A stretch of 44,427 nucleotides of DNA, the filler included, from Catajapyx aquilonaris (taxonomy: Eukaryota): NCBI GenBank assembly GCA_000934665.2. It is 2 parts of 2 records of this genome, joined end to end, with 100 filler letters (N's around TTAATTAATTAA, not from the genome) between each part and the next. Parts side by side here need not be neighbours in the genome. Positions count along the whole stretch, not along the records: positions 1 to 22,121 come from JYFJ02005915.1; 1 more part is not named here. One strand, written 5' to 3'. The notes under the pieces were generated by a model, which searched no databases, had not been told where the DNA came from, and saw only the letters and a program-made list of their open reading frames with translations. The position numbers were made by a program, and so were the translations under genes. Position 1 is the stretch's first letter. Every line of letters starts with the position of its first letter. Shown here piece after piece: positions 840 to 32,880 of the stretch.

Positions 840-2971
840 ATGGTAACTGAATTTACACCATGGTATCTCTGGTTTTAATATACTGTAGAAGGCATTATGT
901 GCTCACATCAATTTATGCAATTGAAGACGTCACTTGCCAAAGTGCCTAACTCCAAGAGGTGAAATTTTTCAGGAGAGACTAAAAAGGCATATATGCATAT
1001 TTGCTCCATTCAGAGTGTCGCGGTTTATGATGCTCATGGGGCACCATTATACACACCTAGTGGCATAAGCATCATCTACTAGAAAGCAACAGGTCAGAGT
1101 CTATTGCAGGTCAAAATCAGTGAACTAGGGCCCTTTCGCAAGTGAACGCCCGCACCAACATTTCCTCTTGCAAATTTCAGTGGTATAGTCATGCCTATCC
1201 ATCTGAACACATCATATTCATAAAGTAGTACTACAGAGAAAGGTGTGACCCATTTTATTACCATCCTATGTTAATTATTATTAACATCAATCACAATCTG
1301 ATCTACGCCCAGTCAGTTGCCAAAGGGCCCAACTCCAATAGTAAGCCATGGACTGCAAAGCATCACATTCAATTTTAAGGCACTCCTGATTGACTTTGAC
1401 CCGTCATCTTCACTAGGGCTGTGAGGCCCGACTCCAAGAGTAGGAATCCGCAATAAAACGGTTATCGAAATTTTGGGAGTTGGGACCTTTGGCAAGTGAC
1501 GTCTTCAATTGCTTTTACAGAAATGTAATGAATTTTTGTCTTTCATTTCTAGAGAAATGAAACTGCCAAAAACAGTTACTTATGGAAGCCAGTTGAATTC
1601 GTGAATAGAAAACCATCTAATTTTCAGTATGCAATACTGATATTAAATCAGCAACTTTCCAAGTATATAAATCTGTCTGCTTTATGGGACAATGGTTAGT
1701 CATACAAGTTTGCTATGTCATTGCATTTGAAAGTTTATACTTGTGTACCTGAATCTAACCATTTACTTCTAACAGCACAGGTGAGAGTTACTGTAGATGG
1801 TGGCACAAACCACTGGCACAAGTACCTGGAGACACAACCCTCTGTATTGCATCCTGTTCCTGACATGATTACAGGGGATTTTGATTCAGTAACAAAGGAT
1901 ATACTGGAGCATTTTAAAAGACGAAGCTCACATGTAATTCATACTCCAGATCAGAGTGAAACGGACTTTACCAAATGTCTCAGGGAAGTGGCCACAACAA
2001 TTCAAATAAAGCGTTTGCAAGTAAGTGAATTTTGTTTTTCCTGTTCTTGCAAGTATGTAGTCTTGTAGTGGGTGTTGTGAAAATATGACACGCTACATAT
2101 GTGATACCACAGGAAAGGTGTAGAACACCACCTTTGGCATGTTGTAAAACTTGTGGCTGAGCTGCTAGTACCCTCCAAAGTTTGGGGAAAAGTTTTTAAA
2201 TTGCAATTTTGGTGAGCAGTGATTGTCCAAATTAGAAGTCCAGTAAAGGTGTTCTACACCTGTGGTATCATGCATGTATCATACTAATAGAGAGTACAAA
2301 GTTCTGATTACCAGATAACAAAAAAAATGAAAACCCGGTAAACACTGGTTCGCTTTTGTCGAGAGGATTTTCGCAAAAGTGGGAATTTCTTGGTAATATT
2401 GGATGACAAACCTAGATAGTTAAATAAATTTAGGAAGTTTAATTACAAAATTGGTGGATATTACAATACAGGAAGACAGGGAAGCTCTTGGCAGATCCAA
2501 TACTTATAGTTATTATTGGGAAATATCGAACGGATACCTCCAACTCTCCAAGTAATAAAGATCAGTACCTGCACCAAAAATCACCATTAACAATTAAACG
2601 TTTTTTTGGCAAAGAGGAACAATTCTAAGGTTCACGGCTCCAAGATTATAGATTAGCATTTGATGAAGAAGAAATATGCACCTTGTGTAACGATAAGGTC
2701 CCTAACACTAAACACCATATGATCTATGAGTGCAGGTTTGAAGATGAAGCCAGGGATCAAGCCATAGAGGAGTTCCCCAAGGTGCCAGCAGTAGCGATAC
2801 ATACAATATTAATCCAAATGCCGCGATATAAAGTGTTAGCCTCATATAAATTTTTTTGTCTAGTAATTAAGAAATTGAATTTCTGCAACATTATATTATA
2901 ACGAGGTGAGAGTCTTTCCATATGATTATCGGAAATAAAGCTAAAGCTGCTGCTGCTGCTGCTGCTGCTGG

Positions 2972-3012
<41 letters not shown>

Positions 3013-3773
3013 GAGAGTAATAATTGGGTTAGTGTATCTCCTGTATTGGGCATATAGCATAGTACCGTTAATGTCTTGTTTAGTGTACAAGCTTGGTCCT
3101 TTGTGTAATGCCCAGGTACCGTGAGCATAGGAGAGTTCACTGGGAGGTGCAAGTGCATGTGCAATGTCATTTGGTGCATTCTCCCTGGCAGGTAGTCTGC
3201 CATAAATAATTCCACTTGAGACAGAGGCATAGGAGTTACCTATTTAAATGTATTTTTTATAATTTATGAGAGTTGACCTCGTCAGGTCATCCCTCTGACC
3301 CCGCAAGGTCACTCAGGGTTGTGGTCGTGTAATACAACGGGTACAGAACATCTGTTTATTGGACCGACCAGCGTTGCTGGTTGCAACACGACTGACTCGA
3401 GTACAGAGTTCCCTCCAGGGCACCAGGCCCAAAACCAAGATACCGGCAGGTGCCCTCCTGCCATCTAGCTAGATCTAGACTAGACGATCTAGTGAGGGGA
3501 CTTAACAAATTATGTGCTGCAAAAAATTAATAGATAAAATGTGATGAATATTCTGGTTATGAAAATGAAGTGATATGGTGAATCATAGACTTGGATTATT
3601 TAATTTCAAACTTGACATTACATTCTCTGCATAAAATTCATAACCTGTTCCTCCTAGGCTATAATGGAATTTGTAATTAATTCTGAGCATGAAATTGAGT
3701 TGTTTTAAATGTGTTATAAATGGTTCTCCATCTTACTCTTGGAGACCTTGAAATTGCTGTATATTATTATTAC

Positions 3774-3811
<38 letters not shown>

Positions 3812-4091
3812 TTCTTATTATTATTATTATTATTATAATGGATACCCTGTGATAGGCCCCTTGGACCTCTTAGGGGATCATCTTTTCGTGAACCGTCTTT
3901 AATCATTGCCTGCGTGTGATGGATTTTGATTGCGGGAGGAAACGGGAGAACCCCGAGAAAACCCACGCGAACACGGAGAGAACCCATCGAAACTCTATCC
4001 ACATAAGCATCCTTTGCGCGACCCGGGGATCGAACTCGGGACCTTAGAGGTGGAAGGCTGTGGCGCTAACCACTCCACCACCGTGTTGTCC

Positions 4092-4126
<35 letters not shown>

Positions 4127-5579
4127 ATGTCATCTCCCACCCATCACCTTATCTGAATGCCACCCACTATGGACACACTAATGTAATAAGCAGGGGAAAT
4201 AAAACAAGGCGTGGAGTTGTCATATGTCATGCATTTGACACCATGGACCTCAGACAACATTATCCTGACAATGCCACACCTTAGTGACCCTCTTATCACC
4301 CCAACTTATCACATTGGGTGACCATAGAGGGTGGTGTCCAGACAAGGCAGTGAGTGGGAGTTGCCTTTTAATTTTAAAAATAGACAGTAGGTGTTAGAGG
4401 TTAATTTTGTTATATGATGTCACCTTTTTAAATATTTATATTTAAAAAATGCCTAGCATGACATGACCAGGAGGTAGATAACTACGTATAACGGGGAGGT
4501 GGAGTGGCACTGCGGAAAAGCACGTGCCCACGGTAAGGGTCACAGGTTCAATCCCAAGCCCGGGTTTTCCGTCCTTCATCTCGTATAGAGTTGGGTCGTC
4601 TCTGGCTTCATCTCGGGTGGGAGTCCTTAAGACTAACCGCCTGGGGGAACTCACAAAATGACCATATGAGACATTGCACTGCACCTTGCACTTCCCCTCC
4701 CACTCATCCCTGCCTGTGGGCCCAGACACTTCGTAAAAAGGTTCCAGTTGTGCAAGTACAATGTACATGAAGTTAATAATAAAGGTCTGTGTGATACCCC
4801 AAGAGGGGTCAAAGCACTACCCGGACCCGGAGGAGGTAGATAAGTACATAGCCTATATTTAATAAAAATACAGATTGTAAACATATTGTAAGGTACTATA
4901 ACAAATGCTTCATTTGAATGCTACTTGCTCTTGTTTTTCATTATTGAAGTTTACAAAACTTTTATTTAATATTTTTTTTAAATTTTACCCTGTGATAGGG
5001 TGGAGCTCTTTTAGGGGGGTGAAGTTTACAAAACTTAAATTGATGTTGCATTAAATACCAGTGTATTGTCGCCAGTCATTTGGCCAGTACACATTGACTC
5101 TTTGGCTGCATTATGTTCATCCTTTCTTATTTCAGTTACAGGGAGTCATTGCTTTAGTAGAAAACAGTGGGAGATTAGATCACGTGCTGGCCAACATCAA
5201 CACTCTTTTCAAAGCTCGCCAGATTTTGGATGTGCCAGTATTTCTGCTGTCCAGCAGTGCATTAACATGGTTGTTATGGCCTGGACGTCATGAAATTCAT
5301 CTGACTCCGGATTTTTACCCATGTTGGTGCAGCCTGATACCCATTGGAAATGAATGCAACAACGTCACAACTGCTGGTCTTCAGTGGAATTTAAGTATGA
5401 GTGAATAATGGACTTGCCCCTGCTGTGGATATTGAATTATTGAACTACTTTCAGATAAGGGTACCCTTCGATTTGGTGAATTAGTAAGCACATCTAATGC
5501 ATACTGTGGAGAAGACACGGTTGTCATTGAGACAGAGAAGCCCCTGCTGTGGTCAATGGGATTGCCTGGAGAAGAGTAG
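840..5579 (+). CDS. TPK1: Thiamine pyrophosphokinase 1 (spliced, ~257 aa)
   Basis: Exons 1553-1694, 1776-2020, 5136-5394 and 5455-5579 (TAG 5577-5579) join in frame via GT-AG introns. Motifs: [78 protein letters not shown]. The start is inferred as ATG 840-842 directly followed by donor GTAACT (phase 0 to 1553) and is less certain than the rest. Confidence 0.93.
923..1506. mobile_element. Non-autonomous DNA transposon (possibly Sola-like) in TPK1 intron 1
   Basis: 26-bp perfect inverted repeat 917-942 / 1487-1512 (GCAATTGAAGACGTCACTTGCCAAAG). AATT flanks may be a 4-bp TSD. Internal subterminal copy near 1316-1338. Confidence 0.7.
2096..2276. mobile_element. TA-flanked MITE (Tc1/mariner-type)
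   Basis: Inverted ends TGATACCACAGG..GTGTAGAACACC / GGTGTTCTACACCTGTGGTATCA with TA on both sides. Confidence 0.6.
2297..3010 (+). mobile_element. 5'-truncated, decayed non-LTR retrotransposon (LINE ORF2 3' end)
   Basis: CTLC-x9-H-x4-C zinc-knuckle in the 2683-2901 frame, AATAAA ~2934, (CTG)n(CTA)n tail 2947-3010, flanking direct repeat TAGAGAGTA (2288-2296 / 3011-3019). Confidence 0.7.
3267..3507 (-). mobile_element. Possible solo LTR
   Basis: GC-rich island in an AT-rich intron, TG...CA termini, AATAAA on the minus strand ~90 nt from its 3' end; TSD imperfect (ATTTA/AATTA). Confidence 0.35.
3762..3836. repeat. (TTA)n microsatellite
   Basis: Direct reading; a second tract lies at 4093-4125 on the other side of the SINE. 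Confidence 0.95.
3837..4091 (-). mobile_element. tRNA-derived SINE with V-domain-like core
   Basis: A-box TGGTGGAGTGG, B-box GAGTTCGATCC, core GTTCTCTCCGTGTTCGCGTGGGTTTTTCTCGGGGTTCTCCCGTTTCCTCCC; second copy at 22314-22531. Confidence 0.85.
4489..4830 (+). mobile_element. tRNA-derived SINE (second family)
   Basis: B-box-like GGTTCAATCCC; 20-bp flanking direct repeat AGGAGGTAGATAA(C/G)TAC(G/A)TA at 4469-4488 / 4831-4850; related copy at 36070-36335. Confidence 0.8.
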
Positions 5580-11157: not shown

Positions 11158-14100
11158 TTAGTCATCATCAGCATCGGCTATGGCCAATATGGTTTTGAAG
11201 GAGAACGGAGCAAATGGATGGCCTGTACCAGCATAGAACTTGCTCTGGAATTCGACCCTGGGAAACAAGCACTGCTTTAGATTTGCACATCTCTAGCACA
11301 TGTATCCACTTACCAATGCAATCGTAGGGTATGGAGAAAGGCTGAAAGTCCCTCCATGATAACTAAAATGCTTATGGTTAGCACAGCCCAAAATGCAAAG
11401 ATTGGATACAGCATAACACCACCTATCCAAAGAGGTTTACCAAACCCCTGTGTCATGACCATGGTCCAAAGCACTTCACTCAGTTCTGAAAGAGTTGGAA
11501 TATATTTAAGTATATTTACAGTAAAAACAAACAATTTCCAACTCAGGGAAGAGCACTAGAAACTAATTTTCACTTACGGGCATGAGCCAGACTCAGAGCC
11601 CACAGTCGCAGGTACGAAGCCGTGTGAGATATTGACTCGAGAACAAACTCTATGGTCTGTATACACTGATGTATCCAAATCTCACCCATGTCATGCTGAA
11701 CCTCTTCTCCAGGAAGGGGATCTCCATTTATTTTCTGTTAAATATAGCACCGGTTAGTGTAATGTATTTGTCCTAAGAACACATGGGTTACATACTGCAA
11801 AACACCCAGTGTTGGAACAATAACGAATGAGAAGTGGCTTGACTAAAAGCATGAAGGGAATGCATGCCAGACCCACTACCACTAAAATTTGCTGCAGAAT
11901 TTCCTGTGAAGAAAAAGTAACGTTAGTAATAGATAAGTGCCAGCTTTTTGTTTGACTAGAATATATTGTGTTCACCTGGCCAGGAAACATGTATGAGTCA
12001 CAATCATCCAGTTTTGTTTCGTCCTTTTTGAAGAGAACCATGTTGATAAAGGTGATCAAAATGGAAGGTGCACAGCCTGGGTGCCTTGCCTTTACATCTG
12101 CAAGAAATTACAGTTGACTGAAGTTCATTAGCAGATGGATAAGTGATCTTTCAACTTACCAGAGCCAGCAGAATATACCACCCACTTGAAAATGATCAGG
12201 AATAAGAGGTACACAAACAAGCACAGCATAAAGAGGATTTTTGGAATGAATTCGCAGAAGATGTTTATGTACTTGCGATAATATCTGTAATGAACAAATT
12301 TGTTGCCTATGGATTTTGATTTTAAACATGTGGAGGAGCTTACATGTTGTTCCACATGGTCAGACAGATCCCAAACATCATGTGAATGACTCCAATGATG
12401 ACAGACACTTTCATTTTGTATGCATTGAGGAACGTGATTTTATTTGATGACAACTGGAAGCAAATTCATAATCAGTTGGTGTAAGTTGCAGCACTGCTTC
12501 CATGATACTCACCGACCAAATAGGATCGATTCCAAAAGGATAAGGTGTCTTGTCATACTGATCTGTAGCTGGATCAAGCATCACTTCTGATGACCCATTA
12601 GAATAGTCATTTGTCATGTTAGCATGCCAGTGTGACCCAAATATGTTGAAGGACTTAGAGAATAGGTCATTGTAGAGAATGCCCGTATATATAGAAAAGA
12701 ACCCCATGAGGAGGATGATGTAGCGACCACCAAACAACATTTTGAACATCTGGAAAATTTGTTTTGTGAGTCTTTATATAGTATACATATAGATACATAT
12801 AGATGCCCTAATGACTACTTACTTCACCCAACTTTTGACTGCCAATCTGTTTCTCCTTGAAAACCATCCAGCCAGCAAACAATGCAAGAATGAGTCCATG
12901 ACCACAGTCACCAAACATGATGGCAAACAAGAATGGAAAGGTTATAATTGTATAAGGTGTTGGATTCACTTCTCTGTACATAGCATGCCCATAGGCATCA
13001 ATTAGGGCTTGAAATCCCTTGGTGAACCGGTTGGTGCGATTGTAAGTTGGTGGTGCTTCTTTGGTCTCCATTTGGTTCAGAATAGGTGATACTGTGCCTC
13101 CACTGCGATCCTGTGATTGTGATTTAGTCAGTTATTTGTATGGCCAAGCTCCAGTCAATACTGTACATACTGTTCCTCTGTGCAGAGCATTCTGGATTGC
13201 AACTAAATCTCCCAGTGGTACCCAACACTCTCCAATCAAGCATTTTTGAGTCACATCAATATTGAAGAGGTTCAGAGTGTGGTATATGGCTTTAATTTTG
13301 CGCACTTTCACAAGCCAATTTCTCATGTTTCGAGATGCAGCAACCAACATGCGGCGTCGATGATCCTCAGTTTGATTCAGCACCTGTAAAAATGTTTGTT
13401 GTTACACAGCAATTTCTGGGTCACAAGGAGTTGACAAAAGTGTAACTCACAGTAGTGATGTCAACCAGACGAGTCTGGACCCCTTCAACCATGGACTGTC
13501 GCTCTGCAGGAGTATCTGGGCAAGGGTACAGAGTTGCCCTGTATCCTTCACAAATTTTTCTCACTCTGTTCTTAAGTTGCTCGCCTTGGAAGAAGACTAT
13601 GAAAACACACTTGTTGACCTTGTCACCCTGAAGACAAAATAGCAAAATGTGTCTTAGGCACTTAAAATGGACAAAAAAGCAAACAAATATACTTACAGTA
13701 ACAGGGTCTTCTAGAGGCACATTGATCTCAGCCTGGCGCATAAAGACATTGCCACGACAAACCCTCCATAGCATGCGTTCAAACCCATGCACTTTTTCTC
13801 GAAGAATCACACCAGTTACAAACCTATGAGAAATCATGTCTGTTAGCAGCATTGGCCAGGTATCTCAGTGCAAATTGGGTCTTACCCCAAATGCATAGGT
13901 CCACGGCCAACCTGACTTGCAAGTGTCTCATCAGGTAAAAGAGTGGTATTGTCACGATCAATGCTGGCATCACGCTGAAATTAAATAAAATAAGCAGTAG
14001 TCAAGTGATACGTTTTCAAACCTGATCCTTACCTCATCAAAGAATACATTTGCACGCATCAAAATGTGCTTTAGCTCTGTGAGTTCCAGGTGGTTTTTTT

Positions 14101-20365: not shown

Positions 20366-20717
20366 CAGCTCCGGATTTCCCATTAGGCACAGTAGGCACT
20401 GGCCTAGGGGCGGCCGCGAGTTGCAATAAATATTTTTCAAATACAATAATAGGAAATAAGGGCGAGATCAGAAAATAACCAAAATTTTGAGGGGGCTTGA
20501 TTTACCACTATACAAGTAGGTACAGGCAGAAAAGGTAGCCTAATTGCCGAAAGGCGGCCATATCTTACGCGGCTATAATTTAAAAATAAAATAAAATAAA
20601 ATAAAATAAACTAAACTAAAATAAAATAAAATGAAGGAGAGAACACAAGAAAAAAAATTGAATTTTGAAGCGCCATGAGGNGGCCTGGGGGGGGGGGAGG
20701 GGGTAAATCCGGCGCTG
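20366..20717. mobile_element. hAT-like MITE
   Basis: TIR CAGCTCCGGATTT / AAATCCGGCGCTG; perfect 8-bp TSD GGCACATC (20358-20365 / 20718-20725). Confidence 0.85.
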
Positions 20718-21259
20718 GGCACATCGCATCGTGTAACATGGACTGTTTTACGGCGGATGAGATGCCATTGACTCAGAGGAGGACCATACCTGACCTGCCA
20801 ACAGGGAGCATGTCTCTGATACCACCAATTTTGAAAATGACATACTGGTACTCTGACATCAAATTCCCGAAACTTTCTATCTTTGAAAGCCAGTATTTCC
20901 CATTTTCATGCAGATCCTATACAAGTATTGTGATGCCCCACCATGCTGCGTGGGTCGCCATGACATTTCATTTGCATCTAATAGCCCTCTCTGCCGCCTC
21001 CCAACTCCCCTTCTATTGCGAGATGTGACCTGCCTAGCACCCGAGGTCATCACGCACTCCGCCTGAACCCGCGAAAGGTCCAACCCAAGGCATGTAATCA
21101 ATCCACTATCCACTAGCTACGTATGCACAGTACTGCACAGCTACAATAGTATGGGAAAAATAATAATAATTATTATGTTCTTACCTCTAGAATTCCCGCA
21201 GACGGGCAGGTCCCACTACCTCCATTTCAGGAGACCCACTAACCCTTGGCTTCTCCATA

Positions 21260-21602
21260 AAATAACACGGTGTCACACATTATTGTCCACATTATTGTCC
21301 ACATTATTATGAGGTCCCGTCTGGTTCGCCAGCGACGGTACTCTCTTCCTCGAGCGGTCCTCGGACCTGACTCGCATTTCTTGGTCGGACGGGGTGCTTG
21401 GGAGAATATCCCACCCCCGTCCCTGGGTTGGACCCGGCATTGCAGTACAGCCGGGGCCAGCCCTCCTCTCCCCCACCCTTCTCACCCACCCCTACCTTGC
21501 AATCCCACTCCTTCCTCTCCTACCCCCGGCTGCCAAGGCTCGACTCAGACAGAGCCATACAAGCTGGGTAACCCCTTCCTACCAACCAACCAACCAACCA
21601 AA
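21260..21602 (+). mobile_element. Short non-coding retroposon with (CCAA)n tail
   Basis: Flanking direct repeat CCTTGGCTTCTC(C/A)ATA (21244-21259 / 21603-21618); 3' stem-loop CCCGGCT..GGCTC..GAGCC..AGCTGGG; tail 21580-21602; no pol III A/B boxes seen. Confidence 0.75.
21311..21397 (+). ncRNA. Candidate HDV-like self-cleaving ribozyme (possibly decayed)
   Basis: Manual fit to P1/P1.1/P2/P3/P4 topology with L3 TCCTCG, GG after P1', and C21386 in J4/2; three deviations from consensus. Confidence 0.55.
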
Positions 21603-21715
21603 CCTTGGCTTCTCAATAGAGCCCTCTTGAAATTGATAAATATTTTTTAAACAATATAATAATAATAATCAAAAATCAAAACTGATGGTCATACGCCACG
21701 AGTATAGGCTACTAT

Positions 21716-21826
21716 CAGGGATGGAAAAAGAACCGCTTCTTTGGGCGGTAAGCGGTTCTTTTTCTATCCCTGCACATGGAAAAAAGAAGCGCTTCTTGGA
21801 AGGAAGCGGTACTTTTTCCATCCCTG
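21716..21826. mobile_element. hAT-like mini-MITE made of two tandem hairpins
   Basis: TIR CAGGGATGGAAAAAG(A/T)ACCGCTT; perfect 8-bp TSD GCTACTAT. Confidence 0.85.
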
Positions 21827-22121: not shown

Positions 22122-22221
22122 NNNNNNNNNNNNNNNNNNNNNNNNNNNNNNNNNNNNNNNNNNNNTTAATTAATTAANNNNNNNNNNNNNNNNNNNNNNN
22201 NNNNNNNNNNNNNNNNNNNNN
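22122..22221. other. Assembly gap with artificial linker
   Basis: 44 N + TTAATTAATTAA (22166-22177) + 44 N = exactly 100 nt. Confidence 0.95.
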
Positions 22222-24033: not shown

Positions 24034-27000
24034 TACTCCACGTAACACTTATTATTAGTACATGTTGCTATGCATTTCTGTAACCAAATTCGCTCGAGAG
24101 AATTGCAAGGCAGCTATCAATCATTCAATACCCCCCTTCGCTTACCACCGCACTTCCTCAGCATGCATACCACGGATCATTACACCCCAGCATGATTGCC
24201 TCGCTTGCACCACATGCAAATTCTCGGCAAAAATCTAGCCTGTAACTAGTTCACAATAACCCCCTCACTATCTAGGCGGTACATGATAGTGTGTTGGTGA
24301 AAGTGAAGCTGGACAAATCGGAATGTTTGTTAGATCACCCATATTATCATATGCTTTGAATTGACCTCCAGTCGGTTCACTGACTCTGGGCGTTAGTCCG
24401 CATCCTATTTCAGATGGGGCAAAGACATATATCCATATTATGAAATAATCGAAGCAGGAAGAACCAGTACGGGGTCGAAGGTCAGACAGGTCACCCTCAG
24501 CTGTTTCACACCCTCAGAAGAACGTGCCCGTTCACAAAAACTGTTTCATCCGTTTCAAAAATTTTGACATACGTCCATTTTTTGGGAACCTCTACCCGAC
24601 TTGAGGCCACCTGCTTATATACACACAATTCATTATTAAAAAGGGCGCGTATAAGCTGCGTTTGGCGCCCTTCCAAACGCGGCCGATACACAACATGTTT
24701 ACGCTTTTCCCGCAGATATATATCTCATTGGAGGGCCGGCCAAGGAAAATCAGAGCTGTCCAGCACCTAGCGGAGGATCGTCCGAGGCCGCCCCTGGGCC
24801 AACCTATCTCCAAGGAGTCAACCCCCCCNCCCCCCCTTACTGTAGATAAATAGTTGCGGCAGACGTGCGTAGGAACGCCCCCGCATGGAGGGGCTGGATT
24901 TGCCATTCCAGCACATTAGGGTTTCAACCGAGGAGCCGAAATCATGTGAGTATTTTCGTTTTCTTTTGGGATTCAACAGCTGTTTGTAAATCAGGTTTAT
25001 TGGGTAGAAGGCCTGCATGCTAGTATTTCCTCAAAGGCCAAGGCCTTTTACGTCACTTGGGTGCTGCGGGGTTTTTTAAATTACAATGGGTGCCAGACAC
25101 TGTTGCATGTACGATGTCCAAGGAGGTACGGAGGAATTCAGACAGAAAAAAATGGTGGAATAACACAAATGGTCAGTTGCAGGTACAAAATAGTTTTTTA
25201 ATAGGAGTGATATAGTGTGGAAATGCGGCGATAACATTTTCTTGTCAGGGACGAAAGAAACCATGTGTGATGTCAAGGTGCGATATTGTATTTGAACCCA
25301 CCACATGGAAATTCGCGAGAACCAGTCGCACAATATATTCAGCCATAGAAAAGTGCAGACGTCACAATGGGCAACAATGTAACTAACAGTCTCGTGACGT
25401 AGGCTACATTTTAGCTTCGGGAATGCGAATATTGCACTTTGTTGCTAAGAAGCTAAAAATCACCCCATATGTGCATCATTAACCCCATATTTATCACCCA
25501 TGTGGTATAGGGGTATCAGCACGTCCTCATTTCCCGTGGACATAAAACAGGCATGACAACACGGGATAAAAATAATGGCTGTGCATCTGCCTCAAGAAGC
25601 CACTGGGCACAATGTGGGTCTGTGACCTTGCATATATATATTCTGACCTCTAAGGCAGCTATAGTTCGCCTATAAAATATTTTTTCCTTCTCCATCCTCC
25701 GTCAAACAAAAGGCTGTAAATTCTGCAAGCTTGGTCAATACCACTTGGCCTTGCACTTGAACCAAAGGCAATTCAACTATTCAGCTGCATGCTAATAATA
25801 GTGTCTGTCACTCACGATGGTACCGAAGAACGTGTTGGGTGGATTGCTACATAATTCCGAGCCATCCTTTGCCTCGTGATGTGTGAAATTCTATACATCC
25901 CTCCCGTTCATGTGTGGTGGCCTGATAAGCCGCCAGAGAACATGATGACGCATCGTCATTTGCCTAGTGATTCAGTAAGACATCTGCCACAAGCCATATA
26001 GGTTCCCTGCATTTTTTAATTATCCATTTGCATGTTTACTGGAAATGTACAGCAAAGATTAGGTTCATGACTCATTGCGAAACTGTGATGTCTTGGCTCC
26101 AATGCGAATAAACACAGTAGGGGACGTCGTGATAATTCCCAAAATATACTGTATTGTCGCCAAATTGCTTTACAATCCCCACAAGTTATATGCCTGAATA
26201 AGGTATGACAATCTTGCTCATCCAGTATCACAGTGTAAATTCCAGGAAAAATCGCTAATATATATTAATGAATTAGTTTATAGCTCATAGTTAAATGATC
26301 AGTGTGTGCAAGCATGTTGAAATCTAATAGTGACGATATTCCACTATTGTTCATTTCTAGCCAAATTATATAACGTGCGCAATCTCAATGTAAGTCATAG
26401 TCCGACATCAGACAATAATGATTGCGGGCAGATTCAAAAGACCGATAGGAAATCACGGTGATAACGAATATGACAAGGGCCAGTTAAATGCGTATTCGAG
26501 ATTATATCTCAAGGATCCTGCGCTATCGTCCACTTACTTCTCTTGCGGAACTCGGGATGCAATATACATTGTTTAAGTCTCACTTAGCAAGAATGTAAAA
26601 TGCCAAGTAGGTGATGATATGGAATGGCGCATGATACAATGCAAGGATTAGTCGGGGTTTATTATTCTGCACGAATATTTGAAATATGAACACTGGTTAC
26701 GACCACATGCTGCAATTGTTCTTCTACCTGTCATAAAGTTATAAGGCATCCAGGGCCAAAAGCCTCTTTGGCTGCAATAGAAACCATATCTAACCAAACC
26801 AAAATGTACTGTACGTGCTGTATACATAGGTCACCGTCATTTCATGGAAAGGAAGTTGCATGCGGAACTCGAGCTGATCAATACTTGTGTGTATCTGCTG
26901 GTAACAAAGACAATAAATTTCTTACGTCACAATTATAGTCCCCAAAATCAGCATATACCGCTATCTGTTGGAAAGAGGCAAACAAGAAAATAATGAATCT

Positions 27001-28504: not shown

Positions 28505-31500
28505 ATGAGCCCTCCACAGCTGCAGGAGGAACAGAAGGTCGCGGGCGACTCCAATGGCTTCCCAGCACCGGATGCAGCCCAGCTGCCTCCGACGGCCAGG
28601 TTTTACATAGGTAAGATGTCTTCGGACGAAAATGTTTCGGGCAAAGTGGTGTAATCCTCGACTTTTTCAGGTGATGGCAGGGCGTCGCTGACGGACACCA
28701 GCCTCTTCGGAGGCGAGTGCGGGTCTGGAGATGATGTGGTTGGGTCCGGGGATGAGTATGACGATGAGGTGGCGGCGGAACCACCGCATGTGGTTCCTCC
28801 TGATGGCGGATGGGGGTGGGTGGTGGTTGCCGCATCCTTCTTCTGTTGCTTCATTGTCGACGGGGACATCTTCACGTTCGGGAACTTCGCCAGGCACATA
28901 CAAAGCAGCTTCAATGAGTCGCTGTCCCGGATCGCACTGGTCGGGTCACTGCAGTCTGGAGCCTACCTGCTTGTAGGTAAGGTAAGGCCTGTGACGACCA
29001 TCACCACTTTCCCATTGCAGCCTCCTACCGGGTGTTTGAGAGTTCATGAACTTTGGAAAGTTGATGAAATGGAAATAGCGACATCTTAGTTCATGCAATG
29101 TCAATCGAGTCGTGATTATGAGGACTAAAGGCGACCGAGTGATATTATCCTTGTAGATCTGCAACTTGTGAGCCTCTCTTGTGAGGCACATGGCACATAA
29201 GTAGGTGGACCTGAACACCTCTACATCTCGACTATCACTTGATTAATGTGCTATGCTCTTACTTCTCAGGTGAATTTGCTCTCACTTTTATAGTCCTCGC
29301 TGTATACTTTTCAGTTTTTAGCCTTTTACAACCAAGCAATTAAAACATACTAGGTCACGTCAGAACTAGTCATACGTGTGTGCCTACCACAAATATGCGT
29401 AGTACTCAATACGATGGGGCTGCTTTTCAGGACCATTTGTGAGTGCACTGGCAAATCGCTTCGGATTCCGGGCAGTGACCATCGCTGGCTCCCTACTCTG
29501 CACTCTGGGCTTCTTGATGTCAGCATTTGCCACAAGCTCCTTCTACTTATGCATCACCTACGGGCTAATGTCTGGTGAATAATAATAAAAAAATTCTCCT
29601 CTCCATCCCATACGAGCCAGGTCTAACTTCTGATCGTTGCAGGAATCGGCTTCGGGTTCGTTTACGTCCCGTCAGTGCTGACAGTCAGTTTTTACTTCGA
29701 GCGTCGGCGGGCTTTAGCCACTGGAATTGCAGTTTGCGGCTCTGGAATTGGCACTTTTGTCATGTCCATCCTCTCCAACTACCTCATCGAGGTTTACGGA
29801 TGGAGAGGAGCGCTGTTTGTGAAGGCTGGGTTCAGTCTCCAGTGCGCCGTTCTTGGAGCACTCTTCAGGCCATTGCCGGTGACCAAACCAGAATCATTTG
29901 ATGAGGAGCAGAGTGAGAAGCAGAGGAGCAGGAGTCGAGGAAGTGGATATGATAGTGGTGAGAGTGATGGTAAGAGGAGGAGGAGGAAAAGCAGTGCATA
30001 TGGCGCCCCTGATGTTCCTCTGCTGATGAGGATCAAGAAGGCCAGGGATGATCAGCTGAAGCAGTGTGAATCCATAGTGAGTTTCGCCAGCTCTACTGGG
30101 CCGCCCGCACTGCCTAATGAGAGGCAGAGGAGTGTGTCGCAATGCGAATATATCCCACAGGTACAAGCCACAATTATCTAATTTTGTTTCACCTGTAGAA
30201 TAAGTCCTAAATATTGTTGAATTCACACCATTCATACAGTTCTACATGCATTTATCCAAGTGTCTGCCTGGAATTTGATATAGATTTAATCAATTATTTG
30301 CCAAAAAATTGCATGGCTAAAGTATTGCCAAGCTGCATGTCCAGTATTTGGGATTGAAATTCCAGACGGATGGACTTTTTAACTGAATTAATTTCGTAGT
30401 GGAAAGTCCATCAGGGTTTATGATGCTAATTATTCCACCCCACGTAATTATATCAGTTTAATGAGGCCCTTATGTTTTACTGGCATGAAAAAAGCAACAG
30501 TTTCACCTATCCCTAGTATAAAAATGTGCAGAATACTATAGTCTGGAAAACAGCTTACACATTCTTGCATACCTTTTATTAACATTTTAAAACACCTGAC
30601 TTGCTAACCATTGCCATTATTCAATTGTGTTAAAATCTCTTGTTTCTTCACATGCTGGACTACCATGCACAGGGTTCTGTTCTCATTTTGACTACGGTAT
30701 ATTATGTTTTTCACACAACAATCACGTATCTTTCGGATCTTTGTCACAACGACTTATTTAAATATCCATTTTAGGGAAGGAATTTTTCCTCCCAGTCCCT
30801 GAAGCTCCGTATGGACAGGTGTGAACGAGGGACCAAACGTCTGAGTGTGCCAATACTGGATGGCAATTATGAATGTGATCCTGAACCAGTGATGGAGGAT
30901 GTTGAGGAGGTCGAAGAGGAAGAAGCGGAGGGGACAACAGAAAATGGAGAAGCAATCGTGGAAAATAGCAAGCCCACAATAAATGGAGTTGATGGGAACA
31001 AGAACATCGTCCAGTGTGAGAATCGCAATAATAATACACCAACCAGGCGGCAGTCAGAGGTGTCAACAGCAAGGCAAAGGCGCAGGAGGTACAGTCGGAC
31101 AGAGGGCATGAGACCTTTCTACAGAGAGGACATCTTCTTCAGTGCCAGTCTACTTCGATTGCCACAGTACACGTCCAAAGTAGGTGTTCCATATTTATAA
31201 TTGGTTTCAATGGTGTGAAATTCTGGTATGCAAGGGAAAAAAGGATTCGTTGTAACATGCAACAGGGCTCTGCATTGGACTAGTGCAGCTGGATGAGCAG
31301 CACTTATATTAGCCTACAATGCAATTCAGATTTCTGATGATAGCTACACAGAATTATACGTGGCTTGATGTCCAGTCTTACATATATTTACACTTCAGCC
31401 AAAATTATGTAATTATGTTGTTACACATAGTTCCCTCCTTTTTTTCAGACTAACATTGATGATTTCCATGCCTCGGTCACACGTGTGCCGACAATGGCAG

Positions 31501-32880
31501 AGTTCCATCGGGATGAGCAGGAGTGCCATATATGCTCCCTAGCATTTCGTAAGACATTGGGAACCATGCTGGACTGCAGCTTGCTGACCTCTCCTTCTTT
31601 TCTGCTACTCTGCTTCTGTGGATTCCTGACCATGATGGGATTTTTTGTCCCATACATGTACCTCACAGGTATATTTCTCAGTTGATTTCTACTTCAGCTA
31701 GTGCTAATCTGTTGCCTGGAAATTTTCATCTTGCAGACATGGCAATGGCAGCAGGAGTGGAAGAGGAGTCAGCAAAATATCTATTGGCACATCTGGGAAT
31801 AATGAACACTGCTTGCCGTGTGGTGTGTGGATGGATCTCAGACCATCCAAGAATAAATGCCCTATTCATAACAAATGTGGCACTAACTATAGGTGGTGCT
31901 TGCACTATTGTGTCGCCATTCCTCCATGATGACACTCTCCTGCTGATTTACAGCAGCATATTTGGTGGAGCAGTGGGTGAGTACATACATTACAGGGTGT
32001 TTCTTACTAGGTTGTCCTGCAGTCAGCATACTCTTTGGTCCAAAACGAGTCAAAAATGTAGGGGTGGGGGGGTGGGGGGGGGGATGTCAAGGAACCAACT
32101 GGTAATGAGATAGAATGATAGATAGACAACCAGACACATTGGTCTGTCCCTCCAGACAGACGGAAACATACATGGCACCTTTTTATACGGAAATCGCCTG
32201 ACAGGTGGATCTGCTCACCTTACAATAGCTGCCTAGGGAGCAGGATATAATCATGTGATAATCATTACTGATTGGATTTTGCATGGTCCCCTTGTTCACA
32301 GTAGTTATCAAATGACTTATGGATACACCCTGATACACCTTATACTGTATTAAGATATAGAGCAATTAAAGTCAACTAGGGTATAGTAATTGATCACAAG
32401 ATTTAAAAATAATAATCTCAGCTTCTATGGCCACATAACTTAAATGATTTCAAAGTGCAAGTCAACCTCGACCAATAAATATGAAAAAATTATTACAATT
32501 TCACTGTTCCGTTGAACACCCGGTGGCATTTAACAACCACGCCATTCTTTACAGCATGCTTCGCATCGCTTCGATCGATAATCCTGGTGGACTTACTGGG
32601 TCTGGAGCGTCTGACAAATGCATTTGGCCTCCTGCTGCTTTTCCAAGGTTTGGCTGCAACAATTGGCACACCAGTGGCAGCTGCTTTCTACGACTCAACA
32701 GGAGACTATGCATACTCCTTCTACTTGTCTGGCATATTGTTAGCACTGTCTGGTATACTGTGCTATCCCTTAGGGTGCATCAACAATTGGGAGAAGCGCA
32801 GGAAGGCCGGAGCACCACATGTTAAAGTAACAGCTGCATCACCGCAGTGTGAAGGTCAAAACAAAGCAGTTCCAGTCTGA
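28505..32880 (+). CDS. SLC16 / monocarboxylate transporter family MFS protein (invertebrate MCT12/14-like, long central loop), 8 coding exons, 754 aa
   Basis: Exons 28505-28610, 28671-28976, 29431-29574, 29643-30160, 30775-31179, 31449-31668, 31737-31976, 32555-32880 (2265 nt, in frame). Motifs: PPDGGWGWVVV, YFERRRALATGIAVCGSG, YGWRGA, RPFYREDIFFSASL, LVDLLGLERLTNAFG. An acceptor at 28496-28497 just before the ATG implies an upstream non-coding exon. Confidence 0.95.

What the first reader, a model, noticed from the sequence alone, without database searches (positions are those of the whole stretch)
21311..21397. HDV-like ribozyme fold at the 5' end of a short non-coding retroposon
Seen: P1 GAGGTCC(21311-17)/GGTCCTC(21356-62); J1/2 is exactly one hairpin CGTC-TGG-TTCG-CCA-GC-GACG (21318-37); P2 GTACTC(21338-43)/GGGTGC(21392-97); P3 TCT/AGC around L3 TCCTCG (21347-52, as in HDV UCCUCG); GG(21363-64) placed for P1.1; P4 ACC/GGT; C21386 at the catalytic position. 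The host element has a ~16-bp TSD, a 3' stem-loop and a (CCAA)n tail but no pol III boxes. Known: R2, RTE and other non-LTR elements use 5' HDV-like ribozymes. Inference: a ribozyme-headed SINE-like family that self-excises from host transcripts. This copy has a T-T pair in P1, T-C in P3, CGGA instead of CGAA, and 51 nt of leader upstream of G1, so it may be inactive.
Basis: partly seen in the sequence, partly recalled or inferred. Interest (0 to 1): 0.8.

Follow-up and report, generated by a model that had tools for sequence, protein, structure and literature searches.

The report
Possible self-cutting head of a retroposon
A short, many-copy jumping element in this arthropod-type genome starts with a stretch that matches the published blueprint of hepatitis-delta-type self-cutting RNAs, a known way for such elements to free themselves from host transcripts, but the match is imperfect and cutting is unproven.

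Summary
Laying contigs of four DNA runs (one sample) shows a high-copy family. Its shared sequence begins at 21308-21311, the proposed cleavage site, and ends at about 21600. The 51-nt leader is private to this copy.

The head carries every fixed nucleotide of a published HDV descriptor: G1 paired to C, L3 UCCNCG, GG for P1.1 and J4/2 CRRA. It also has a hairpin filling J1/2, as in mosquito Agam-2 ribozymes. With relaxations it is the only such match in the window, and 14 of 200,000 shuffles match.

It passes only with three relaxations at once: a U-U in P1, a 2-bp P3 and 2 extra nt before P2'. The family does not repair these. Rfam finds no ribozyme family. Stronger local hairpins compete. 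The proposed catalytic C is T in 22-31% of family depth. No family alignment, RNA data or cleavage test could be obtained.

Verdict: probably (about 0.5) a weak or partly decayed HDV-like ribozyme heading a non-autonomous non-LTR retroposon. That would be a new member of a known kind.

The parts
21244..21259 (.). Left target-site duplication, CCTTGGCTTCTCCATA
   Evidence: family D2. 15 of 16 bases identical to 21603-21618.
21260..21310 (+). 51-nt leader inside the TSD. It is private to this copy and contains a 12-nt unit repeated 3.1 times (21271-21308).
   Evidence: tandem repeat. In one search table 2 the depth here is 31-87, like the unique flanks, not like the family.
21311..21602 (+). Body shared by the high-copy retroposon family (about 290 nt, GC 0.62)
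   Evidence: summed contig depth is 2,667-22,709 in bins 21321-21586, against 20-193 in the flanks. Alignments start at 21308, 21311 or 21316 and end at 21597-21600. One search gives the composition.
21311..21317 (+). Proposed P1 5' strand. The cleavage site would lie 5' of G21311.
   Evidence: It pairs with 21356-62 in 6 of 7 positions; T21315 faces T21358. G21311-C21362 satisfies G1-Y.
21318..21337 (+). J1/2 folded as a single hairpin (P1.2-like peripheral domain)
   Evidence: -6.1 kcal/mol. One search gives the published role of P1.2 in Agam-2 ribozymes.
21338..21343 (+). Proposed P2 5' strand (extendable to 21337)
   Evidence: It pairs with 21392-97(98) in 6-7 bp including 2-3 G-U. Duplex energy -5.2 kcal/mol.
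21344..21355 (+). Proposed P3 (TCT/AGC, 2 of 3 pairs) enclosing L3 TCCTCG 21347-52
   Evidence: L3 matches the fixed U19 C20 C21 N C23 G24 of the published descriptor. C21348 reads A in 2.6-10.7% of family depth.
21356..21364 (+). Proposed P1 3' strand (21356-62) followed by GG (21363-64) for P1.1 with C21348 and C21349
21365..21385 (+). Proposed P4 (ACC/GGT, 3 bp) with a 15-nt loop
   Evidence: P4 is variable or dispensable in R2 ribozymes.
21386..21391 (+). Proposed J4/2 CGGA with catalytic C21386, then 2 extra nt (CG) before P2'
   Evidence: CRRA. In one search, C21386 reads T in 25, 31, 30 and 22% of family depth in runs X1 to X4.
21392..21397 (+). Proposed P2 3' strand
   Evidence: In a 120-nt context G21392-94 pair downstream with probability about 1.0.
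21351..21374 (+). Competing local hairpin HP2 (9 bp, CUCG loop). It sequesters P3', P1' and the P1.1 Gs.
   Evidence: -10.5 kcal/mol. One diverged contig table 7 keeps it through a paired change, C21355 to T with G21369 to A.
21387..21422 (+). Competing hairpin HP3. It sequesters J4/2 and P2'.
   Evidence: -24.1 kcal/mol
21425..21463 (+). Hairpin HP4 in the element body
   Evidence: -25.2 kcal/mol
21525..21568 (+). 3' stem-loop (outer 7 bp, inner GGCTC/GAGCC). Likely the recognition site for the partner reverse transcriptase (inferred).
   Evidence: -21.4 kcal/mol
21581..21602 (+). (ACCA/CCAA)n microsatellite tail
   Evidence: period 4, 5.2 copies, 100% matches
21603..21618 (.). Right target-site duplication, CCTTGGCTTCTCAATA
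   Evidence: family D2

Best explanation
The insert 21260-21602 is one copy of a few-hundred-copy, non-coding, non-autonomous non-LTR retroposon. It has a 16-bp TSD, a 3' stem-loop, a (CCAA)n tail and no pol III head. The first 87 nt of the family (21311-21397) are an HDV-like self-cleaving ribozyme of the large type with a base-paired J1/2 (P1.2), or a weakened descendant of one.

Proposed mechanism (inferred): the element has no promoter of its own and is read through from host transcripts. The ribozyme cuts 5' of G21311 as it is transcribed, before the strong downstream hairpin HP3 is made. The 5'-OH RNA is then copied by a partner LINE that recognises the 3' stem-loop and tail, so copies begin at or within 3 nt of G21311. 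The copy in this window carries a 51-nt leader inside its TSD. That leader would be either an uncleaved co-transcript or extra bases added at the 5' junction.

Shown: the family exists, its 5' boundary is at 21308-21311, all fixed nucleotides are present, and the fold is rare in shuffles. Inferred: cleavage, co-transcription and the partner LINE. Given the U-U in P1 and the 2-bp P3, activity is probably weak. I put activity at physiological Mg2+ at about 0.3.
For:: family depth is 2,667-22,709 against 20-193 in the flanks. 9 of the 32 listed contig pieces start exactly at 21311. Loose ends with low agreement (0.57-0.65) lie before 21308 (2-4 contigs per run) and before 21311 (4-6 per run), so the flanks differ from copy to copy at that point.

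the published descriptor fixes G1-Y, C20C21 with G36G37, U19, C23, G24 and CRRA. All are present.

this is the only hit on both strands of the 44,427-nt window. 14 of 200,000 shuffles hit, 2 of them at index 0-3.

with the looser motif TYCNCG, 19 of 40,000 shuffles reach the real score and 3 of 40,000 do so at index 0-3.

it is the top-scoring of 3 motif-bearing places in the window.

a structured J1/2 helix is a known activating feature of the Agam-2 HDV-like ribozymes, and J1/2 here is exactly one hairpin.

natural R2 ribozymes tolerate P1 mismatches (about a quarter of elements) and a P3 mismatch (the jewel wasp element, which is active). Cleavage at the element's own 5' end goes with variable 5' junctions, as seen here.

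the commonest substitution in the 290-nt family falls on the predicted catalytic C (chance 0.0034), and 2 of 3 substitution polymorphisms fall on the 13 fixed nucleotides (chance 0.006). This marks those positions as special, although its direction is ambiguous.
Against: The fold passes only with all three relaxations at once: 0 hits in each of 7 stricter settings and 0 with the strict descriptor.

One search lists no family variant of 10% or more at T21315, T21358, T21344, C21355 or 21390-91, so the consensus keeps the defects. A U-U mismatch in P1 left a sunflower ribozyme without in vitro activity except at high Mg2+, and a P1 mismatch left the horseshoe-crab R2 ribozyme without in vitro cleavage.

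T replaces the catalytic C in 22-31% of family depth, while none of the other 14 CpG sites reaches 10%. That looks like a subfamily which spread with a dead catalytic base; C to U abolishes cleavage in R2.

Rfam gives no HDV-type match at E<=10 on 451 or on 117 nt.

The nested part of the fold is worth -12.3 and P2 -5.2 kcal/mol, against an MFE of -34.9 for the same 90 nt. HP2 (-10.5) and HP3 (-24.1) sequester P1' and P2'.

One diverged contig keeps HP2 by a paired change but lacks the UCCNCG core (table 7).

Some copies share TAT, or a short duplication, upstream of G21311, so the boundary is known only to +/-3 nt.

My relaxations were chosen after seeing the candidate. With no sequence motif, 247 of 3000 shuffles score as well.

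All four runs come from one sample.
Confidence: 0.5

Rival explanations
1. Chance look-alike. The head of this retroposon is a GC-rich chain of ordinary local hairpins (HP1 21311-45, HP2 21351-74, HP3 21387-22, HP4 21425-63). These would serve RNA stability, or binding of the partner's protein, or act as an internal promoter. The family's sharp 5' end would be a transcription start. The 51-nt leader would be junction filler from 5'-end joining.
For: The MFE fold of the whole element is a hairpin chain with z = -2.9 (0 of 200 shuffles fold as well), and each hairpin is strong. A loose HDV descriptor finds some fold in 1281 of 3000 shuffles and at 2,512 starts in the window. No Rfam ribozyme hit. 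The consensus keeps the P1 and P3 defects, and T at 21386 is common. HP2 is kept by a paired change in one diverged contig that lacks the L3 core.
Against: All 13 descriptor-fixed nucleotides are present in the right order and spacing, starting at the family's first base. That occurs in 14 of 200,000 shuffles, and in 2 of 200,000 at the terminus. J1/2 is exactly one hairpin, as in Agam-2 ribozymes. No pol III head, tRNA or small-RNA homology explains a fixed start. The 90-nt head alone is not unusually stable (z = -1.0, 33 of 200 shuffles fold as well). The top polymorphism landing on the predicted catalytic C is a 0.3% coincidence under this reading.
Confidence: 0.35
2. Relic ribozyme. The head descends from the 5' ribozyme of the partner LINE by internal deletion, as in R2 SIDEs. 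The present consensus no longer cleaves, and the element spreads as uncleaved or otherwise processed read-through RNA.
For: The core nucleotides are intact, but the P1 mismatch, the 2-bp P3 and the 2-nt spacer are fixed in the family. The T variant of the catalytic C is abundant. This copy carries a 51-nt leader inside its TSD. SIDEs show this route of origin.
Against: About half of the laid contigs are at least 99% like this copy (80 of 162, 138 of 268, 103 of 214 and 94 of 190), so the family is young. Its copies still begin within 3 nt of G21311, which needs some end-defining step. A dead relic would not be expected to keep all 13 fixed nucleotides.
Confidence: 0.1

Closest known systems
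R2 SIDEs (short internally deleted elements) of Drosophila (Eickbush and Eickbush 2012, PMC3414825; abstract seen)
   Same: Short non-coding non-autonomous non-LTR elements made of a 5' HDV-like ribozyme joined to a LINE 3' end. They are propagated in trans and show variable 5' junctions.
   Different: SIDEs insert site-specifically in rDNA and are rare. This family is dispersed: this copy lies between protein-coding genes. It has a 16-bp TSD, a (CCAA)n tail and a few hundred copies. Its partner LINE is unknown.
drz-Agam-2 HDV-like ribozymes of Anopheles gambiae (Webb et al. 2016, PMC4908430; Results section read)
   Same: A large HDV-like ribozyme with a base-paired J1/2 (P1.2) domain between P1 and P2. 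That they are tied to retrotransposons is recalled, not from a call.
   Different: Agam-2 has a 12-bp P2 and short single-stranded linkers beside P1.2. Here P2 is 6-7 bp with G-U pairs, there is no linker, P1 has a U-U and P3 has 2 bp. No sequence-level comparison was possible, and Rfam gave no hit.
L1Tc/NARTc Pr77 ribozyme of Trypanosoma cruzi (PMC3383444, PMC3185411; abstracts seen in the listing)
   Same: An HDV-like ribozyme in the first ~77 nt is shared by an autonomous LINE and its non-autonomous derivative. It frees the element from co-transcripts at dispersed sites.
   Different: The host is a protist with polycistronic transcription. Pr77 is also an internal promoter. The element here is in an arthropod-type genome and has a microsatellite tail.
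R2 ribozymes with defective stems (horseshoe crab, jewel wasp; Eickbush et al. 2013, PMC3774820; sections 12, 16 and 18 read)
   Same: Natural element populations whose ribozyme carries a P1 mismatch (horseshoe crab, no in vitro activity) or a P3 mismatch (jewel wasp, active).
   Different: Those are autonomous rDNA-specific elements, and many of them cleave upstream in 28S sequence.

Membership tests
HDV-like self-cleaving ribozymes | Strand order of the nested double pseudoknot: P1, J1/2, P2, P3, L3, P3', P1', P1.1, P4, J4/2, P2' | tested here: met
   My descriptor scans recover this order starting at 21311.
HDV-like self-cleaving ribozymes | G1 paired to a pyrimidine at the base of P1 (G1-Y35) | tested here: met
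   G21311 pairs with C21362.
HDV-like self-cleaving ribozymes | P1 of 6-7 continuous base pairs | tested here: not met
   6 of 7 pairs, with an internal U-U at position 5 (21315 opposite 21358). No repairing variant reaches 10% in the family. Mismatches occur in about a quarter of R2 ribozymes, but at the top of the stem.
HDV-like self-cleaving ribozymes | P3 of 3 base pairs | tested here: not met
   2 of 3 pairs; T21344 faces C21355. Zero hits when no P3 mismatch is allowed.
HDV-like self-cleaving ribozymes | L3 with conserved U, C and G, and two C that pair with GG after P1' (P1.1) | tested here: met
   UCCUCG at 21347-52 and GG at 21363-64. L3 is 6 nt; from the descriptor's numbering I infer 7.
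HDV-like self-cleaving ribozymes | J4/2 CRRA with the catalytic C, leading directly into P2' | tested here: inconclusive
   CGGA at 21386-89 fits CRRA, but 2 extra nt precede P2', and C21386 reads T in 22-31% of family depth.
HDV-like self-cleaving ribozymes | P2 of at least 5 bp | tested here: met
   6-7 bp with 2-3 G-U, -5.2 kcal/mol. HP3 competes for its 3' strand.
HDV-like self-cleaving ribozymes | Match to a curated covariance model (Rfam) | tested here: not met
   No HDV-type family at gathering score or at E<=10 on 451 nt and on 117 nt.
HDV-like self-cleaving ribozymes | Helices supported by compensatory changes among relatives | not testable with these tools
   No family copies could be fetched. 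The family is near-identical.
HDV-like self-cleaving ribozymes | Mg2+-dependent site-specific self-cleavage, abolished by mutating the catalytic C | not testable with these tools
   Needs a bench assay. No RNA run was listed.
Non-autonomous non-LTR retroposon (SINE-like / SIDE-like) | Target-site duplication flanking the insert, and a 3' simple-repeat tail | tested here: met
   16-bp TSD, 15 of 16 identical. (ACCA)5.2 tail.
Non-autonomous non-LTR retroposon (SINE-like / SIDE-like) | Many dispersed copies with different flanks and no coding capacity | tested here: met
   depth about 100-fold over the flanks, with loose ends of low agreement. No Pfam hit and no protein homologue for the open frame.
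Non-autonomous non-LTR retroposon (SINE-like / SIDE-like) | Partner LINE sharing the 3' end (and, for a SIDE, the 5' end) | not tested
   No genome is held. No reverse-transcriptase ORF in the window.
Canonical SINE | Pol III head derived from tRNA, 7SL, 5S or an snRNA | tested here: not met
   No tRNA. No Rfam match to any small RNA at E<=10.

The most novel reading that the evidence does not exclude
The family carries natural on and off alleles of its own ribozyme. The commonest substitution in the whole 290-nt element is C to U at the catalytic base, and a minor one removes a P1.1 cytosine. This would mean that ribozyme-dead lineages spread or persist preferentially, for example because copies with a live ribozyme would cut the host transcripts they land in and are purged. 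Copies such as this one, with a 51-nt leader inside the TSD, would then be retrotransposed uncleaved co-transcripts. That would be a direct genomic record of a conflict between host and element over a self-cleaving RNA.
Probability: 0.12. Interest if true: 0.65.

Novelty: new member of a known kind. Interest (0 to 1): 0.38.

Why it matters
If the head cleaves, this is a dispersed, several-hundred-copy, ribozyme-headed non-autonomous retroposon in an arthropod-type genome. It would extend a design known from rDNA-bound R2 SIDEs and trypanosome NARTc. It would also give a compact natural test case for two questions: how much stem damage an HDV-like core tolerates in vivo, and whether hosts select against live ribozymes inserted in their transcripts, using the C/T alleles at the catalytic base. 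If it does not cleave, it is a useful warning: a full set of descriptor nucleotides at an element's first base can still be a look-alike.

Tried and rejected
Own genome: none is held.

Copies inside the window: none; the element is single-copy there.

Earlier notes of this scan: no look-alike by sequence or by relatives. Notes on the same genome mention other SINE families but not this one.

Metagenome scan with a 21-mer gave 4 loci. They share only the 21-mer and are chance matches in unrelated contigs.

Viral contigs: 3 scans, 0 hits. Prokaryote genome contigs: 2 scans, 0 hits.

Protein search with the open frame 21309-21602, hoping for mis-called ORFs from other copies: 7 candidates, none at E<=0.001.

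No RNA holder was listed among the sequencing runs, so expression and RNA 5' ends could not be examined.

An alternative P1 using GGACCT 21363-68 (perfect 6 bp with 21312-17) was rejected. It leaves no UCCNCG loop or P1.1 in register.

A tRNA, 5S or snRNA head was rejected.

Coding function of the stop-free frame was rejected: no Pfam hit, no homologue, proline-rich low complexity, and in C-rich sequence one open frame of three is unremarkable.

Ruminski 2011 and Webb 2009 are not held. What I say about RTE and Baggins ribozymes rests on the passages of the review PMC6765202 returned by a term search and on recall. No supplements were opened.

Full report
**What is in the sequence**

- P1 is GAGGTCC (21311-17) against GGTCCTC (21356-62). 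Six of seven positions pair, and T21315 faces T21358.
- The 20 nt between P1 and P2 (21318-37) fold as one hairpin (-6.1 kcal/mol).
- P2 is 21338-43 against 21392-97, with two G-U pairs.
- P3 has two good pairs and a T-C mismatch.
- L3 is TCCTCG (21347-52). GG follows P1'. C21386 opens CGGA.

The insert is bounded by a 16-bp target-site duplication with 15 of 16 bases identical (21244-59 and 21603-18). It ends in (ACCA)5.2 and has a 3' stem-loop at 21525-68.

No tRNA and no Rfam family accounts for the head. Rfam gave nothing at gathering score in the whole window and nothing relevant at E<=10 on 451 nt or 117 nt.

The window is animal-type DNA. It holds exons of a thiamin pyrophosphokinase gene, a V-ATPase a-subunit gene and an MFS transporter gene, and no reverse-transcriptase ORF. 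Earlier notes of this scan call the genome arthropod-like; I did not test that.

**The family**

No genome is held for this window, and the element occurs once in the window. Four DNA runs hold the locus, all from one sample and one study. I laid their contigs on 21150-21700 at 80% likeness.
- Summed contig depth is 20-193 in both flanks, and 31-87 over 21264-21301.
- Depth then jumps to 2,000-4,638 in the bin 21302-20 and stays at 2,667-22,709 up to 21586. It falls back to flank level after 21605.
- Of the 32 contig pieces listed, 9 begin exactly at 21311. These are the same few contigs recurring across the four runs.
- Loose ends lie before 21308 (2-4 contigs per run), before 21311 (4-6 per run) and before 21316 (1 per run). 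Their consensus agreement is only 0.57-0.65, so the upstream DNA differs from copy to copy.
- About half of the laid contigs are at least 99% like this copy (80 of 162, 138 of 268, 103 of 214, 94 of 190).

So this is a young family of roughly a few hundred copies; that copy number is a rough reading of depth ratios, not a count. There is no 3'-biased depth gradient, so most copies are full length.

The 51-nt leader (21260-21310), including the 12-nt repeat found, is private to this copy although it lies inside the TSD. Some contigs carry a short duplication of the first ~7 nt upstream of 21308 (table 7).

**Is the fold more than chance?**

It depends on how much prior knowledge goes into the test.
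- A loose descriptor with no sequence motif finds some HDV-like arrangement in 1281 of 3000 dinucleotide shuffles of 21311-21430. A score at least as good as the real one occurs in 247 of 3000 shuffles, and in 43 of 3000 at the first four positions. The same descriptor gives 2,512 starts on the two strands of the window.
- The most telling test uses nucleotides fixed in a published descriptor: G1-Y, P1.1 C20/C21 with G37/G36, L3 U19..C23 G24, and J4/2 CRRA (Yamagami et al., PMC6326823, passages read). The candidate has all of them. If at most one mismatch is allowed in P1, one in P3, and up to 2 nt before P2', it is the only hit on either strand of the window. Only 14 of 200,000 shuffles hit, 2 of them at the first four positions.
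- With the looser loop motif TYCNCG, 19 of 40,000 shuffles reach the real score. The candidate is the best of three motif-bearing places in the window.

I chose these relaxations after seeing the candidate, so the true probability is larger than these fractions. It still looks small.

Two further points were not in the statistics. J1/2 is exactly one hairpin, which is the activating P1.2 domain described for large Agam-2 ribozymes (PMC4908430).

**What speaks against a working ribozyme**

- The fold needs all three relaxations at once. Each of 7 stricter settings, and the strict descriptor, gives 0 hits.
- One search lists every variant that reaches 10% of depth. None lies at the P1, P3 or spacer defects, so the family consensus keeps them.
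- According to the R2 survey (PMC3774820, sections 12 and 16), P1 mismatches are uncommon. A U-U mismatch left a sunflower ribozyme without in vitro activity except at high Mg2+, and the horseshoe-crab R2 with a P1 mismatch did not cleave in vitro. The same paper also reports that about a quarter of R2 ribozymes have mismatches at the top of P1, and that an active wasp ribozyme has a P3 mismatch.
- Energetically the fold is weak. Its nested part is worth -12.3 kcal/mol and P2 -5.2, against an MFE of -34.9 for the same 90 nt.
- Local hairpins HP1 (21311-45, -12.9), HP2 (21351-74, -10.5) and HP3 (21387-22, -24.1) tie up P1, P1' and P2'. In a 120-nt context G21392-94 pair downstream with probability about 1.0. 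Cleavage would therefore have to happen in the short time before HP3's 3' strand is transcribed.
- One diverged contig that joins the family at 21370 keeps HP2 through a paired change (C21355 to T with G21369 to A) and two extra loop bases. It does not keep the UCCNCG loop (table 7; read by hand, a single contig).

**The catalytic-C polymorphism**

Within the family only three substitutions reach the listing threshold.
- C21386 to T: 25, 31, 30 and 22% of depth in runs X1 to X4.
- C21348 to A: 2.6-10.7%.
- C21483 to A: 0.2-13%.

There is also a 1-nt length change in a C run at 21572 (35-56%). T21509 is private to this copy, since the family reads A.

C21386 is the proposed catalytic base, and C21348 is one of the two P1.1 cytosines. 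The family has 15 CpG sites and only 21386 shows 10% or more C to T, so plain CpG decay does not explain it.

On its face this is evidence against the ribozyme. A lineage with U at the catalytic position seems to have spread, and C to U abolishes cleavage in R2.

Under the no-ribozyme reading, however, it is a coincidence. The chance that the top polymorphism falls on that base is 0.0034, and the chance that 2 of 3 fall on the 13 fixed nucleotides is 0.006. I therefore treat it as double-edged. It also motivates the most novel reading: that ribozyme-dead copies are tolerated or favoured.

**Mechanism and rivals**

My best reading (confidence 0.5): the head is an HDV-like ribozyme of the P1.2-bearing type, or a weakened descendant. 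It sets the 5' end of a promoter-less, non-autonomous non-LTR retroposon by cutting read-through transcripts 5' of G21311. A partner LINE then copies the RNA from the 3' stem-loop and tail. Only the anatomy, the family boundary and the statistics are shown. Cleavage, co-transcription and the partner are inferred.

The main rival (0.35) is a chance look-alike within a chain of ordinary hairpins, with the 5' end set by a transcription start.

A smaller rival (0.1) is a dead relic of a LINE ribozyme.

**Comparison with what is known**

[quoted passage not shown] So are their non-autonomous derivatives: R2 and R2/R1 SIDEs (PMC3414825, abstract) and NARTc (PMC3383444, abstract in the listing). A review states that some non-autonomous SINEs use HDV-like ribozymes, and that hundreds of intergenic ribozyme copies sit between conserved downstream and variable upstream sequence (PMC6765202, passages).

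If real, this is a new member of that kind. It differs by being dispersed, by its (CCAA)n tail, and by defects that are fixed in the family. Membership is not established: the tests for a continuous P1, a 3-bp P3 and an Rfam match were run and not met, while covariation and cleavage could not be tested.

**Limits**

All family evidence comes from one call on contigs of one sample. No individual copy sequences, no RNA data and no partner LINE could be obtained. The two primary papers on retrotransposon HDV-like ribozymes were not held.

Noticed in passing
window 21309-21602 (+): An ATG at 21309-11, right at the family's first bases, opens a frame with no stop through the whole element (98 codons, proline-rich). 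The other two frames have 1 and 2 stops. There is no Pfam hit and no protein homologue. This is probably an effect of C-rich composition.
   Followed up: partly
window 21716-21826: Just downstream of the insert lies a 54-nt unit repeated 1.9 times. It is built of nested inverted repeats (27-nt arms, 93% complementary) and looks like a small foldback or MITE-like repeat.
   Followed up: no
window 21300-21316 (family 5' end): Some family contigs carry a short duplication of the first ~7 nt of the element directly upstream of 21308, and one lacks T21315. This is the kind of 5'-junction variation described for elements cleaved at their own 5' end (table 7).
   Followed up: partly
window 21370 (variant contig): One contig joins the family at 21370 with a different but related upstream head. 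It keeps hairpin HP2 through a paired change and a 2-nt loop insertion, but it lacks the UCCNCG loop. It may belong to a sister family.
   Followed up: partly
window 1700-5405 (+), 11757-13864 (-), 29627-32877 (+): Exon-sized ORFs match thiamin pyrophosphokinase, the V-ATPase 116-kDa (a) subunit and an MFS transporter. The retroposon lies between the last two genes.
   Followed up: no
window 22122-22165 and 22178-22221: Two 44-base runs of N (assembly gaps) lie 500 bases downstream of the element. Single N occur at 20681 and 24829.
   Followed up: no
window 21159, 21185, 21191, 21302: The sequenced sample differs from the window in the unique flanks and in the leader: a 6-nt deletion and three substitutions. 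It is therefore another individual or strain that also carries this insertion (tables 3, 4 and 8, record 17).
   Followed up: no
window 28634 (+), 25561-25574 (-), 43864 (-), 4019 (-): Other weak matches to my loose HDV descriptors. All score far below the candidate (25, 23 and 19 against 38) or lack the L3 motif. I take them as chance.
   Followed up: partly
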